From the NCBI RefSeq assembly GCF_009914755.1, contig NC_060925.1: a stretch of DNA of 64,000 bases; one strand, written 5' to 3'. Position numbers and translations under genes: made by a program. Below the pieces are notes generated by a model that was not told the origin of the DNA, did not search any database, and was given only the letters and a program-made list of their open reading frames with translations. The stretch's first letter is position 1; every line of letters starts with the position of its first letter. This stretch comes from the human T2T-CHM13v2.0 reference genome, Homo sapiens. Positions 47,168-53,562 of this stretch are shown one piece after another.

Positions 47168-47603
47168 CTGGGTCAAATGCTAGTTCTGCTTTTTAGGTCT
47201 TGGAGGAATCGTCACGTTGCTTTCCACAATGGTTCAACTAATTTCCACTGCAACCAACAGTGTATAAGTGTTCCCTTTTCTCTGTAACCTCGCCAGCATC
47301 TGTTATGTTTAGACTTTTTAATGATAGCCATTCTGACTGGTGTGAGATGGTATCTTATTGTGGTTTTGATTTGCACTTCTCTAATGATTGGTGATACTGG
47401 TTTTTTATTCATGCTTCTTGGCTACATGTATGCCTTCTTTGGAGATATGTCTGTTGATGTTCTTTGCCCACTTTTTAATGGGGTTGTTGGCTTTATTCTT
47501 GTAAATTTGTTTAAGTTTCTTATAGATGCTGGATATCAGTCCTTTGTCAGATGTATAGTTTGCAAATATTTTCTCCCATTCTGTAAGATGCTTGCTTATT
47601 CTC

Positions 47604-50600
47604 CTTTTTTTTATTATTTGTTATTATAATTTAAGTTCTAGGATATATGTGCACAAGGTGCAGGTTTGATACATAGGTATACATGTGCCATATTGGTTGC
47701 TGCACCCACCAATTCATCATTTACATTGGGTATTTCTCCTAATGCTATCCCTCTCTCAGCCTCGCAACCCCTGACAGACCCAGTGTGTGATGTTCCCTTC
47801 CTGTGTCCAAGTGATCTCATTGTTCAATTCCCACTTATGAGTGAGAACATGCGGTGTTGGGTTTTCTGTCCTTCAGATGGTTTGCTGAGAATGATGGTTT
47901 CCAGCTTAATCCATGTCCCTGCAAAGGACATGAACTCATCCTTTTTATGGCTGCATAGTATTCCATGGTGTATATGTGCCACATTTTCTTAATCCATTTT
48001 ATAATTGATGGACATTTGGGTTGGTTCCAAGTCTTTGCTATTGTGAATAGTGCCACAATAAAGATACATGTGCATGTGTATTTATAGTAGCATGATTTAT
48101 AATCCTTTGGGTATATACCCAGTAATGGGATTGCTGGGTCAAATGGTAATTCTAGTTCTAGATCCTTGAGGAATCGCCACACTGCTTTCCACAATGGTTG
48201 AACTAATTTACACTCCCACCAACAGTGTAAAAGCATTCCTATTTCTCCACATCCTCTCCAGCACCTGTGGTTTCCTGACTTTTTAATGATCGCCATTCTA
48301 ACTGGTGTGAGATGGTATCTCACTGTGATTTTGATTTGCATTTCTCTGACGACCAGTGATGATGAGCATTTTTTCATGTGTCTGTTGGCTGCATAAATGT
48401 CTTTTTTGAGAAGTGTCTGTTCATATCCTTAGCCCACTTTTTGATGGGGTTGTTTGTTTTTTTCTTGTAAATTTGTGTAAGTTCTTTGTAGATTCTGGAT
48501 ATTAGCCCTTTGTCAGATGGGTAGATTGCAAAAATTTTCTCCCATTCTGTAGGTTGCCTGTTCACTCTGATGGTAGTTTCTTTTGCTGTGCAGAAGCTCT
48601 TTAGTTTAATTAGAACCCATTTATCTATTTTGGCTTTTGTTGCCATTGCCTTTGGGTGTTTTAGTCATAAAGTCTTTGCCCATGCCTATGTCCAGAATGG
48701 TATTGCCTAGGTTTTCTTCTAGGGTTTTTATGGTTTTAGTTCTAACATTTAAATCTTTAATTGATCTTGAATTAATTTTTTAATAATGTGTAAGAAGGGA
48801 TCCAGTTTCAGCTTTCTACATATGGCTAGCCAATTTTCCCAGCACCGTTTATTAAATAGAGAATTCTTTCCCCATTTCTTGTTTTTGTCAGGTTTGTCAA
48901 AGATCCGATGGTTGTAGATGTGTGGTGTTATTTCTGAGGCCTCTGTTGTGTTCCATTGGTCTATATCTCTGTTTTGGTACAAGTACCATGCTGTTTTGGT
49001 TACTGTAGCCTTGTAGTATAGTTTGAAGTCAGGTAGTGTGATGCCTCCAGCTTTGTTCTTTTGGCTTAGGATTGTCTTGGCAATGTAGGATCTTTTTTGG
49101 TTCCATATGAACTTTAAAGTGGTTTTTTTCCAATTCTGTGAAGAAAGTCATTGGTAGCTTGATGGGGATGTCATTGAATCTATAAATTACTTTAGGCAGT
49201 ATGGCCATTTTCACGATATTGATTCTTCCTATCCATGAGCATGGAATACTCTTCCATTTGTTTGTGTCCTCTTTTATTTCGTTGAGCAGTGGTTTGTAGT
49301 TCTCCTTGAAGAGGTCCTTCACATCCCTTGTAAGTTGGATTCCTAGGTATTTTATTCTCTTTGAAGCAATTGTGAATGGGAGTTCACTCATGATTTGACT
49401 CCCTGTTTGTCTGTTAATGGTGTATAGGAATGCTTGTGATTTTTGCACATTGATTTTGTATCCTTAGACTTTGCTGAAGTTGCTTATCAGCTTAAGGAAA
49501 TTTTGGGCTGAGATGGTGGGGTTTTCTAAATATACAATCATGTCATCTGCAAATGGGGACAATTTGACTTCTTCTTTTCCTAATTGAATACCCTTTATTT
49601 CTTTCTCCTGCCTGATTGCCCCGGCCAGAAATTCCAACACCATGTTGAATAGGAGTGGTGAGAGAGGGCATCCCTGTCTTGTGCCGATTTTGAAAGGGAA
49701 CGCTTCCATTTTTTGCCCATTCAGTATGATATGGGCTGTGGGTTTGTCATAAATAGCTCTTATTATTTTGAGATATGTTCCATCAATACCTAGTTTATTG
49801 AGAGGTTTTAGCATGAAGGGCTGTTGAATTTTGTTGAAGGCCTTTTCTGCATCTATTGAGATAATCATGTACTTTTTGTCGTTGGTTCTGTTTATGTGAT
49901 AGATTATGTTTATTGATTTGTGTATGTTGAACCAACCTTGCATCCCAGGGATGAAGCTGACTTGATTTTGGTGGATAAACTTTTTGATGTGCTGTTGGAT
50001 TTGGTTTGCCAGTATTTTATTGAGGATTTTCTCATCAATGTTCATCAGGGATATTGATCTAAAATTCTCTTCTTTTCTTGTGTCTCTGCCAGGCTTTGGT
50101 ATCAACATGATGTTGGCTTCATAAAATGAGTTAGGAGGATTCCATCTTTTTCTATTGATTGGAATAGTTTCAGAAGGAATGGTACCAGCTCCTCTTTGTA
50201 CCTCTGGTAGAATTTGGCTGTGAATCCGTCTGGTCCTCAACTTTTTTTGGTTGGTAGGCTATTAATTATTGCCTTAATTTCAGAGCTTGTTATTGATCTA
50301 TTCAGAGATTCAACTTCTTCCTGGTTTAGTCTTGGAAGGGTGTATGTGTCCAGGAATTTATCCATTTCTTCTATATTTTCTAGTTTATTTGGGTAGAGGT
50401 GTTTCTAGTATTCTCTGACGGTAGTTTGTATTTCTGTGTGATCAGTGGTGATATCCCCTTTATCATTTTTTACTGCGCCTATTTGATTCTTGTCTCTTTT
50501 GTCCTTTATTAGTCTTGCTAGCGGTCTATCAATTTTGTTGATGTTTTCAGAAAAACAGCTCCTGGGTTCATTGATTTTTTGAAGGGTTTTTTGTGTGTCT

Positions 50601-52995: not shown

Positions 52996-53177
52996 GACTG
53001 TGAGACAAACCCTAGCCACATCTCCAGCATACAAGAACTTCAAAATGTCTGAACCGCAGCAGCCAGGCCTTCCTCCAGGACCTCTTACCCCAGGATCTTG
53101 CTTCAAGTGCCAGAAATCTGGCCACTGGGCCAAGGAATGCCCACAGCCTGGGATTCTTTCTAAGCCATGTCCCATCT
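52990..53177 (+). mobile_element. Isolated HERV-H internal fragment, gag nucleocapsid zinc-knuckle region
   Basis: Encodes CFKCQKSGHWAKEC (CX2CX4HX4C); DNA resembles HERV-H int ('tgtgagacaaaccc...gccacatctccagca...aagccatgtcccatct'). Confidence 0.85.
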
Positions 53178-53562
53178 CTTGTTTGTTCTCTTTATAGTTT
53201 CTTTTGCTGTGCGGAAGCTCTTAAGTTTAATTAGATCTCACTTATCAATGTTTGCTTTTGTTGCAATTGCTTTTGGCATCTTCATCATGAAATCTTTGCC
53301 AGTTCTTATTCCTGAATGTTACTGCCTAGATTTTCTTCGAGGATTTTTACAGTTTTGGGTTTTACATTTAAGTATTAAAATCATGTTGAGTTGATTTAGT
53401 ATATGGCGTAAGGAAAGGATCTAGTTTTAATTTTCTACCTATGACTAGCCAGTCATCCCAGCATCATTTATTGAAAAGGATATCTATCTATAACAAACTC
53501 ACAGCCAGCATCATACTGAATGGGCAAAAGCTTGATGAATTCCCCTTGAAAACTGGCAGAAG

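What the first reader, a model, noticed from the sequence alone, without database searches (positions are those of the whole stretch)
47591..53193. HERV-H gag zinc-knuckle fragment co-inserted, inverted, at the 5' end of an L1 inside a single TSD
Seen: the minus-strand L1 5' end (first ~35 nt missing) runs directly into ~180 bp of plus-strand retroviral gag encoding CFKCQKSGHWAKEC, with no LTR or other ERV sequence around it. The host L1 then resumes with cttgtttgttctc (53178-53190), which repeats cttgcttattctc (47591-47603; 11/13) at the poly(A) end. The junction (about 52988-53000) appears to share microhomology with both parents. Known: L1 twin priming gives 5'-inverted segments, L1 RT can switch to other RNAs, and HERV-H RNA is abundant in primate pluripotent cells. 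Inference: one event in which the second target strand primed cDNA synthesis on a different, sense HERV-H RNA ('twin priming in trans'). Alternatives are a template switch or a 5' transduction from a source L1 lying in a HERV-H.
Basis: partly seen in the sequence, partly recalled or inferred. Interest (0 to 1): 0.8.

Follow-up and report, generated by a model that had tools for sequence, protein, structure and literature searches.

The report
HERV-H gag piece capping spliced L1
An old, spliced LINE-1 copy on human chromosome 1 carries a 189-base piece of HERV-H gag, in the opposite orientation, at its 5' end inside one target-site duplication; it is a rare but already described kind of L1 chimera, and how it formed cannot be settled from the sequence alone.

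Summary
A minus-strand L1 (47605-52992) ends about 30-37 nt short of its true 5' end and abuts 189 bp (52989-53177, plus strand) of retroviral gag. That piece contains a complete zinc knuckle (Pfam zf-CCHC, E 6.3e-8). It belongs to a family with over 1000 first-look matches in the genome, and some relatives carry a tRNA-His primer-binding site, so it is HERV-H. No other sequence of that family lies in the window. Both flanks of the older host L1 map onto the same 11-13 bases of nine uninterrupted relatives. The 13-bp duplication (11/13), a TCTTT/A nick site and a poly(A) tail therefore enclose L1 plus gag piece as one target-primed event. The L1/ERV junction is a 12-nt imperfect microhomology zone with bases from both parents. 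The ERV/duplication junction has none. The age is about 20-40 Myr. Twin priming on a second RNA is plausible, but it was already proposed in print for inverted snRNA, tRNA, 5S, Alu and mRNA partners. It cannot be separated here from a 5' transduction or a template switch. No donor with this junction was found. I rate it a new member of a known kind, of modest interest.

The parts
47200..47603 (-). Host (older) L1, left flank as examined; its true outer end was not determined
   Evidence: Aligns at 75-85% identity to nine uninterrupted L1 relatives, L032-L040. Alignment A4.
47591..47603 (.). Target-site duplication, left copy. The core is 13 nt. It may extend up to 3 nt further into the T run.
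   Evidence: 11 of 13 bases identical to 53178-53190. Both copies map to the same positions of uninterrupted relatives.
47605..52992 (-). Inserted L1, one part from poly(A) to its 5' end. The poly(A) reads as poly(T) at 47605-47612. The 5' end lacks about 30-37 nt. Both ORFs are broken many times; the longest open minus-strand stretch is 258 aa. The copy derives from a spliced RNA.
   Evidence: Colinear with L076 and L077 at about 90-91% identity. ORF list. 5' end compared with nine full-length relatives.
52936..52937 (-). Intra-5'UTR splice junction of the L1 (SpIRE-like). About 715-752 nt that are present in longer relatives are absent here.
   Evidence: 5 of 6 longer relatives (L069, L071-L074) carry the extra segment, bounded by ..CTGAG|GT and ..CAG|. 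In the sixth, L070, no upstream block was found. Larson et al. 2018, PMC5860796, passages.
52989..53000 (.). L1/ERV junction zone, an imperfect microhomology mosaic. 52989 is ERV-like; 52990-52992 are shared; 52993-52994 are ERV-only; 52995-52996 are L1-like; 52997-53000 are shared.
   Evidence: Base shares among 39 ERV copies: 39/39 at 52990-52994, then 1/39 and 0/39 at 52995-52996, and 34-39/39 at 52997-53005. L1 relatives in alignment A2.
52989..53177 (+). HERV-H gag (nucleocapsid) fragment, 189 bp. The frame is open over 60 codons, with no LTR and no poly(A). It ends three codons into the family's second Cys-His box.
53099..53140 (+). First nucleocapsid zinc knuckle (Cys-X2-Cys-X4-His-X4-Cys)
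   Evidence: Pfam PF00098, E 6.3e-8, residues 34-50 of the 60-aa translation.
53178..53190 (.). Target-site duplication, right copy. It is followed by TTT/ATAG, which is the first-strand nick site read on the + strand.
53178..53560 (-). Host (older) L1, right flank as examined; its true outer end was not determined
   Evidence: Aligns at 84-86% identity to L032-L040.

Best explanation
One L1 target-primed reverse-transcription event, roughly 20-40 million years ago, inserted two sequences into an older L1 inside a single target-site duplication. One was the cDNA of a spliced, near full-length L1 RNA. The other was 189 nt of cDNA copied from a sense HERV-H genomic RNA (gag nucleocapsid region).

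The most likely route is twin priming on a second RNA, and every step of it is inferred:
1. The first nick (TCTTT/A on the + strand) primed L1 cDNA from the poly(A) tail up to about nt 30-37 of the L1 RNA.
2. The 3' end left by the second-strand cut primed a short cDNA inside a HERV-H RNA.
3. The two cDNA 3' ends annealed over an imperfect 12-nt match and were filled in and repaired. This left a junction with bases from both parents.

What is shown: the anatomy, the family of each part, the duplication, the nick site, the splice and the junction mosaic.

What is inferred: that the ERV template was RNA, that it was primed from the target DNA, and the order of the steps.

The confidence of 0.4 is for this specific route. 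That there was a single insertion event I hold at about 0.85-0.9.
For: Single event:
- Both host-L1 flanks map onto the same 11-13 nt of 9 of 9 uninterrupted relatives.
- The duplication encloses L1 plus ERV piece.
- The ERV piece has no poly(A), no LTR and no duplication of its own.

L1 hallmarks: a TCTTT/ATAG nick site, a 13-16 nt duplication and a poly(A) tail.

Orientation: the ERV is sense on +, and the L1 is sense on -.

Junction: a mosaic of ERV-only and L1-only bases within 12 nt, as expected if two imperfectly complementary strands annealed.

No donor or sibling:
- The 32-nt junction pattern, with up to 3 mismatches, matches only itself in the genome.
- 0 of 39 scored non-self hits of a 301-nt junction query cross beyond 53000.
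- No ERV copy stands out as closer than 92%.

Print:
- Inverted, 3'-truncated partners inside L1 duplications are ascribed to twin priming (PMC4476161; PMC13174262).
- HERV-H RNA of structure LTR-gag-pro-LTR is 2% of poly(A) RNA in human ES cells (PMC3558390).

Timing is compatible. The private-branch divergence of the L1 is 4.9%, and that of the ERV piece is 6.7% on 177 columns, about 12 changes and so a wide error. An older HERVH wave is dated 25-40 mya (PMC8912925).
Against: - The junction between the ERV piece and the duplication shows 0-1 nt of complementarity between target end and ERV sequence. Published twin-priming chimeras usually show some (PMC2912911).
- The same anatomy follows from a 5' transduction out of a 5'-truncated L1 lying antisense in a HERV-H gag.
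- It also follows from a switch of the growing L1 cDNA onto an antisense ERV-containing template.
- The donor searches have limited sensitivity. Only 40 of 3641 candidates were scored. Three mismatches in 32 nt is about what a 10%-diverged donor would show. Closed regions are not shown, and a donor may simply have been lost.
- No primate orthologues could be examined.
- The 39 ERV copies and the 9 L1 copies used for dating are the best-scoring hits, so they are a biased sample.
Confidence: 0.4

Rival explanations
1. 5' transduction. A source L1 had earlier inserted antisense into a HERV-H gag, losing about 30-37 nt of its 5' end, with microhomology-mediated joining that created the mosaic junction. 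A transcript starting upstream, in antisense gag, ran into the L1, was spliced in the 5'UTR and was retrotransposed. The new copy was 5'-truncated, or its transcript began, 189 nt upstream of the L1.
For: - It gives the same final anatomy.
- Microhomology at 5'-truncation junctions is ordinary (PMC2912911, passages).
- The blunt ERV/duplication junction fits a plain 5' truncation.
- 5' transductions that add upstream sequence to near full-length L1s are documented (PMC13174262, section 13).
Against: - No donor or sibling with this junction was found in T2T-CHM13. Sensitivity was limited.
- The model needs a 5'-truncated source that was still transcribed from upstream, then spliced, and that has since been lost.
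- None of the 39 scored ERV copies is unusually close to the fragment; the best is 92%.
Confidence: 0.2
2. Template switch or repair-synthesis capture. The 3' end of the growing L1 first-strand cDNA left the L1 RNA near its 5' end and paired through the 12-nt imperfect match with an antisense HERV-H-containing template. That template could be an intronic pre-mRNA or antisense transcript, or the DNA of a HERV-H locus. The cDNA was extended by about 180 nt and was then end-joined bluntly to the target.
For: - On the + strand, L1 antisense and ERV sense form one continuous nascent strand.
- Microhomology sits exactly at the L1/ERV junction, and there is none at the ERV/duplication junction. That asymmetry is what this model predicts.
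- Template switching by the L1 enzyme is established for U6 and other RNAs (PMC4476161; PMC13174262).
Against: - Published template-switch chimeras have the partner in the same orientation as its own transcript, and typically copy it from its 3' end. Here an antisense or DNA template and an internal entry point are needed.
- Nothing in the calls made here measures antisense HERV-H RNA. The Santoni 2012 passages searched had 0 occurrences of 'antisense'.
Confidence: 0.25
3. Two separate events, or a later rearrangement. The ERV piece reached the site independently of the L1, either before or after it.
For: None specific. It cannot be formally excluded without orthologous loci.
Against: - The duplication flanks L1 plus ERV piece, and there is no copy of it between the L1 5' end and the ERV piece.
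- The ERV piece has no poly(A), LTR or duplication of its own.
- An independent insertion exactly between an L1 5' end and its duplication is very improbable.
Confidence: 0.05

Closest known systems
Inverted snRNA/L1, tRNA/L1, 5S/L1, Alu/L1 and antisense mRNA/L1 chimeras ascribed to twin priming on a second RNA (Doucet et al. 2015, PMC4476161; Law & Burns 2026, PMC13174262)
   Same: - The partner lies at the L1 5' end, in the opposite orientation.
- It sits inside one duplication.
- The nick site reads correctly only in the L1 orientation.
- The partner is 3'-truncated with no poly(A), which indicates internal initiation.
   Different: - The partner here is an internal piece of an LTR-retrovirus genomic RNA. 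It is not a small RNA, Alu or gene mRNA.
- 'HERV' occurs 0 times in the main text of PMC13174262, and only in unrelated passages of PMC4476161.
- The partner is truncated at both ends.
- There is no complementarity at the outer junction.
- The L1 is nearly full-length and spliced.
Classical L1 twin priming (5' inversion; Ostertag & Kazazian 2001, cited; the paper itself was not read)
   Same: There are two oppositely oriented segments inside one duplication, joined at an internal junction with microhomology.
   Different: The inverted segment is not L1. The L1 itself is colinear, with no inversion.
SpIREs, spliced integrated retrotransposed elements (Larson et al. 2018, PMC5860796), type 97/853
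   Same: - The loss of a 5'UTR segment is exact, bounded by GT at the ..CTGAG|GT donor and by CAG at the acceptor.
- TPRT hallmarks are retained.
- The intron of 715-752 nt compares with about 755 nt implied by positions 98-852 in the paper.
   Different: - This copy is older and more diverged than the paper's search would have found. The paper required over 95% identity to its probe and found nine 97/853 copies.
- The acceptor's numbering could not be checked here.
- This copy also carries the ERV cap.
L1 5' transduction (Law & Burns 2026, section 13)
   Same: Extra non-L1 sequence is joined to the 5' end of a near full-length L1 inside the duplication.
   Different: - Published cases are mostly sense-oriented first exons joined at splice sites, 15 of 17 sense.
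- Here the partner is antisense, internal and joined by microhomology.
- The L1 lacks its first 30-37 nt.

Membership tests
HERV-H (gammaretrovirus-like ERV) | Primer-binding site complementary to the 3' end of tRNA-His | tested here: met
   The fragment itself has no PBS, so the test was made on relatives. In 2 of 5 upstream regions (L027, L030) an 18-nt site with 1 mismatch to the reverse complement of the TRH-GTG1-5 3' end plus CCA lies 1.6-2.0 kb upstream of the fragment's homologue. A third region (L029) has the same site with a 4-nt deletion. L028 has a different PBS-like site, and L026 could not be aligned there. Jern 2005 notes alternative H/F PBSs.
HERV-H (gammaretrovirus-like ERV) | About 1000 copies in the human genome | tested here: met
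   1082 first-look candidates for the 183-nt query, of which only 40 were scored, all at 90-100% identity. Santoni 2012 gives about 1000 copies. First-look counts are not copy numbers.
HERV-H (gammaretrovirus-like ERV) | Two nucleocapsid zinc fingers, which among gamma-like elements is a trait of the HERV-H group (Jern 2005) | tested here: met
   The first box is complete in the fragment. Relative L002 continues into a second Cys-Cys-His-Cys box. The fragment stops three codons into it.
HERV-H (gammaretrovirus-like ERV) | Flanking LTR7-type LTRs | not testable with these tools
   No named LTR library was available, and the fragment has no LTR. The name LTR7 comes from print only.
HERV-H (gammaretrovirus-like ERV) | Gamma-type capsid (Gag_p30) upstream of the nucleocapsid | tested here: inconclusive
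   One open piece of L027 just upstream gives PF02093 at E 0.0015, 18.6 bits, below the 27.4 cut-off. Four other pieces gave no family.
L1 endonuclease-dependent TPRT insertion | Target-site duplication, TTTT/A-like nick site and 3' poly(A) | tested here: met
   A 13-nt core duplication at 11 of 13, extendable to 16, confirmed against 9 uninterrupted relatives. The nick site is TCTTT/ATAG. There are 8 T on the + strand, followed by the L1 3' end.
SpIRE (spliced L1 copy) | Exact absence of a GT..AG-bounded 5'UTR segment starting at the conserved ..CTGAG|GT donor | tested here: met
   5 of 6 longer relatives carry 715-752 extra nt with these bounds. In the sixth (L070) no upstream block was found in the fetched piece.
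SpIRE (spliced L1 copy) | The acceptor is the published A851G852 within the 129-bp segment | not testable with these tools
   No numbered reference L1 was available. Only the intron length agrees approximately.
Twin-priming chimera with a second RNA | Partner inverted relative to L1, inside one duplication, with the nick site fitting the L1 orientation | tested here: met
Twin-priming chimera with a second RNA | Complementarity between the target end and the partner at the outer (5') junction | tested here: not met
   ERV copies read differently from the duplication from 53178 on, with 0/39 sharing the window base at 53178 and at 53180-53185. At most 1 nt is ambiguous.
Twin-priming chimera with a second RNA | Microhomology at the internal junction of the two cDNAs | tested here: met
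   A 12-nt zone in which 7 positions are shared by both parents and the rest alternate between them.
L1 5' transduction | A donor or sibling locus with the same L1/flank junction | tested here: not met
   Only the window itself matches the 32-nt junction at up to 3 mismatches. 0 of 39 scored hits cross the junction. Sensitivity is limited and closed regions are unseen.
L1 5' transduction | A complete L1 5' end next to the transduced flank | tested here: not met
   About 30-37 nt of the L1 5' end are missing. The model survives only with a 5'-truncated donor.

The most novel reading that the evidence does not exclude
A HERV-H genomic RNA served as the second template in an L1 twin-priming event in the germline or early embryo of a catarrhine ancestor. 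If so, L1 complexes at a target site can prime on abundant retroviral transcripts, and this would be a minor, so far uncatalogued route by which internal ERV fragments are scattered without LTRs. The L1 partner being a spliced RNA shows that both templates were processed nuclear or cytoplasmic transcripts rather than DNA.
Probability: 0.4. Interest if true: 0.4.

Novelty: new member of a known kind. Interest (0 to 1): 0.3.

Why it matters
L1 chimeras record which RNAs were near the L1 machinery in cells that contribute to the germline. A HERV-H partner would fit the high HERV-H expression seen in pluripotent cells, and would add LTR-retrovirus RNA to the list of second templates. In practice the locus shows that short, LTR-less 'HERVH-int' fragments beside L1 5' ends need not be decayed proviruses. 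It also shows that spliced L1 copies of the 97/853 kind may be more numerous in older subfamilies than the nine in print. A single locus whose mechanism cannot be resolved does not change current models.

Tried and rejected
- Naming by protein search. The 60-aa fragment found only one named protein, a 95-aa 'hypothetical protein' of a bacterial assembly on a 288-bp contig. I take it for human DNA contamination and did not use, compare or search it further. Three candidates known from samples alone were left out by the tool.
- Pfam on open gag pieces of two relatives. This gave the zinc knuckle, one sub-threshold Gag_p30 hit and nothing for four pieces.
- Naming the L1 subfamily. Khan et al. 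2006 (PMC1356131) is not held and no repeat library is available. 'About L1PA5-L1PA7' is therefore an inference from 4.9% private divergence at 0.17%/Myr (rate as quoted in PMC13174262 Methods) and from 'L1PA6 about 27 MYA'.
- Donor search. A 301-nt junction query and a 32-nt pattern found no donor.
- Rejected: the short 5'UTR as a native subfamily trait or a random deletion. Longer relatives show GT..AG bounds at the known donor.
- Rejected: the ERV piece as a remnant of a provirus decayed in place. There is no other family sequence in the 64 kb, and the host L1 is continuous around the insertion.
- Rejected: a domesticated host gene as the source. There are over 1000 candidate copies and PBS-bearing proviral contexts.
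- Literature. Searches (listings), and passages of PMC13174262, PMC4476161, PMC2912911 and PMC12016303, show no HERV/L1 inverted chimera. The supplementary tables of Law & Burns 2026 and Larson 2018 are closed and might list this very locus.
- Primate orthologues, RepeatMasker/Dfam and genome-wide surveys of ERV-capped L1s could not be run.
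Full report
**What is there**

Reading the window shows the following, from left to right on the + strand:
- an older minus-strand L1, the host;
- the 13 nt at 47591-47603;
- one C, then eight T (47605-47612);
- a minus-strand L1 body running to about 52992;
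- 189 bp of plus-strand retroviral gag (52989-53177);
- a second copy of the 13 nt (53178-53190, 11 of 13 identical);
- the host L1 again.

The inserted L1 is colinear with two relatives over 47606-52992 at about 90-91% identity and has no internal inversion. Its two ORFs are both broken many times. The longest open minus-strand stretch is 258 aa.

**The gag piece**

A 183-nt query gave 1082 first-look candidates in the genome. Forty were scored, and the 39 non-self hits were 90-92% identical. In 11 of 11 fetched loci the match spans window 52989/52990-53177, and the loci go on agreeing with each other on both sides. The window therefore holds an internal excerpt of a longer element.

The frame with the Cys-Cys-His-Cys box is open over all 60 codons of 52997-53176. 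Pfam zf-CCHC scores E 6.3e-8, above its cut-off. Retroviral nucleocapsids lead the PDB hits.

**Family**

- The reverse complement of the 3' end of a human tRNA-His gene plus CCA occurs with one mismatch in 2 of 5 upstream regions of relatives, 1.6-2.0 kb 5' of the fragment's homologue.
- A third region has the same site with a 4-nt deletion. A fourth has another PBS-like site. The fifth could not be aligned there.
- Jern et al. 2005 (PMC1224870, passages) state that the HERV-H group is the gamma-like group with two nucleocapsid zinc fingers and that H/F alternative PBSs occur.
- Relative L002 indeed continues into a second box. The window's piece stops three codons into it.
- A Gag_p30 hit just upstream in one relative is below threshold.
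- A named-protein search was uninformative.

I therefore call the piece HERV-H gag (nucleocapsid). The LTR type was not testable. No other sequence of the family is in the 64-kb window: of 16 relatives' LTR, leader, gag and pro-side sequences, all 16 hit only this site.

**One event**

Nine uninterrupted relatives of the host L1 were fetched. Both window flanks align to overlapping positions of all nine, directly in three and by short extrapolation in six. Alignment A4 shows three things:
- the host sequence is continuous except for the duplicated 13 nt, extendable to 16 through the T run;
- the ERV piece lies inside the duplication;
- the first-strand nick site reads TCTTT/ATAG on the + strand, close to the L1 endonuclease consensus.

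The ERV piece has no poly(A), no LTR and no duplication of its own.

**The 5' end and the junctions**

Nine full-length relatives extend about 35-37 nt beyond 52992.

Positions 52989-53000 form a mosaic:
- 52990-52992 and 52997-53000 fit both parents;
- 52993-52994 are ERV-only (39/39 ERV copies);
- 52995-52996 are found in 1/39 and 0/39 ERV copies, but match the L1 relatives once a 2-nt gap is allowed;
- 52989 is ERV-like.

Such interleaving is what patch repair of an imperfect annealed duplex would leave. Two later substitutions that happen to mimic L1 are an unlikely alternative.

At the other end the ERV homology stops at 53177 and the duplication starts at 53178. There is no shared stretch: 0/39 ERV copies share the window base at 53178 or at 53180-53185.

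- 27 of the 39 non-self hits of a 301-nt query cross window 52936|52937 without a gap, and 12 stop there. Ranking favours long matches.
- In 5 of 6 fetched loci of the second kind, 715-752 extra nt sit at that point, bounded by ..CTGAG|GT.. and ..CTGCAG|... In the sixth, no upstream block was found.
- This is the conserved L1 5'UTR donor (G98U99) described by Larson et al. 2018. They report 'SpIRE97/853' copies that use an acceptor in the 129-bp segment of older L1PA 5'UTRs (PMC5860796, passages).

The inserted L1 is thus the cDNA of a spliced L1 RNA.

**Age**

I built no consensus. Instead I estimated each copy's private branch from pairwise Jukes-Cantor distances.
- L1, 1.5 kb against 9 relatives: 4.9% over all columns, and 3.3% after masking CG columns.
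- ERV piece, 177 columns against 39 copies: 6.7%. The other copies have a mean of 4.0% and a maximum of 6.4%. 7 of 177 columns are nearly private.
- On about 12 changes the ERV value is statistically compatible with the L1 value.
- At 0.17%/Myr (rate quoted in PMC13174262 Methods) the L1 gives about 29 Myr. The overall bracket is about 20-40 Myr.
- That overlaps the older HERVH wave at 25-40 mya (PMC8912925) and the stated age of L1PA6, about 27 MYA.

The compared copies are the top-scoring hits, which biases these figures somewhat downwards. The subfamily name is an inference.

**Mechanism**

Four readings fit a single insertion.

(a) Twin priming on a second RNA. The target's second-strand 3' end primes inside a sense HERV-H RNA, and the two cDNA ends anneal at the 12-nt zone.
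- For: the inverted orientation, the internal junction mosaic, no donor found, and abundant LTR-gag-pro-LTR HERV-H RNA in pluripotent cells (PMC3558390).
- Against: no complementarity at the outer junction, which published cases usually show.

(b) 5' transduction from a 5'-truncated L1 lying antisense in a HERV-H gag.
- For: it gives the same structure, and the blunt outer junction is unremarkable under it.
- Against: no locus with the junction, although sensitivity is limited. It also needs a truncated yet expressed source that has since been lost.

(c) A switch of the growing L1 cDNA onto an antisense ERV-containing RNA or onto ERV DNA at the microhomology, followed by blunt joining.
- For: it predicts exactly the observed asymmetry of the two junctions.
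- Against: it needs an unusual template and an internal entry point.

(d) Two events. This is very unlikely.

I put (a) at about 0.4, (c) at 0.25, (b) at 0.2 and (d) at 0.05, with the remainder unassigned. That there was a single TPRT event I hold at about 0.85-0.9.

**Comparison with print**

Twin priming on a second RNA was proposed for inverted, 3'-truncated U5, U1, U2 and U6 partners (Doucet et al. 2015). It was proposed again for 5S, tRNA, antisense Alu and the 2 of 17 antisense mRNA partners (Law & Burns 2026).

I found no HERV partner in the main texts or in three literature searches. Supplements were closed.

**Verdict**

This is a new member of a known kind, and its interest is modest.

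Noticed in passing
window 52936-52937; loci L014-L024, L076, L077; places listed: The inserted L1 is a spliced (SpIRE97/853-like) copy. At least 27 other loci among the 39 scored share the same splice junction at 84-90% identity. That is more than the nine copies reported in print with a >95%-identity probe. Whether these are independent spliced insertions or one amplifying lineage was not examined.
   Followed up: partly
P0001: The only named protein similar to the fragment (77% identity, 95 aa) is a 'hypothetical protein' of a marine bacterial assembly on a 288-bp contig. It is most likely human DNA contamination of that assembly. I did not use it further.
   Followed up: no
L028:2720-2830: One close relative of the fragment's family has a different primer-binding-site-like sequence at the position where others have the tRNA-His site. 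This fits the alternative H/F PBSs mentioned by Jern et al. 2005. From recall it resembles a tRNA-Phe site, which I did not test.
   Followed up: no
L002-L006, just 5' of the fragment's homologue (alignment A1): The ERV copies fall into two sequence variants immediately upstream of the point where the window's fragment begins (L003 and L004 against L002, L005 and L006). This suggests sub-lineages or an indel polymorphism in gag.
   Followed up: no
L027:2808-3077: One HERV-H relative has an internal tandem duplication of about 67 nt (97% identity between copies) between the PBS and gag.
   Followed up: no
window 52972-52981 against the ERV copies: The L1 5'UTR just inside the junction shares a further short run with the ERV sequence that lies upstream of the fragment's start in proviruses: 37-39 of 39 copies agree at four positions. 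This is probably chance or an alignment effect, but it lengthens the region of loose similarity between the two parents.
   Followed up: no
window 47200-47603 and 53178-53560: The host L1 is clearly older than the insert, at 75-86% identity to its best relatives against about 90% for the insert. This is consistent with the nesting order.
   Followed up: partly
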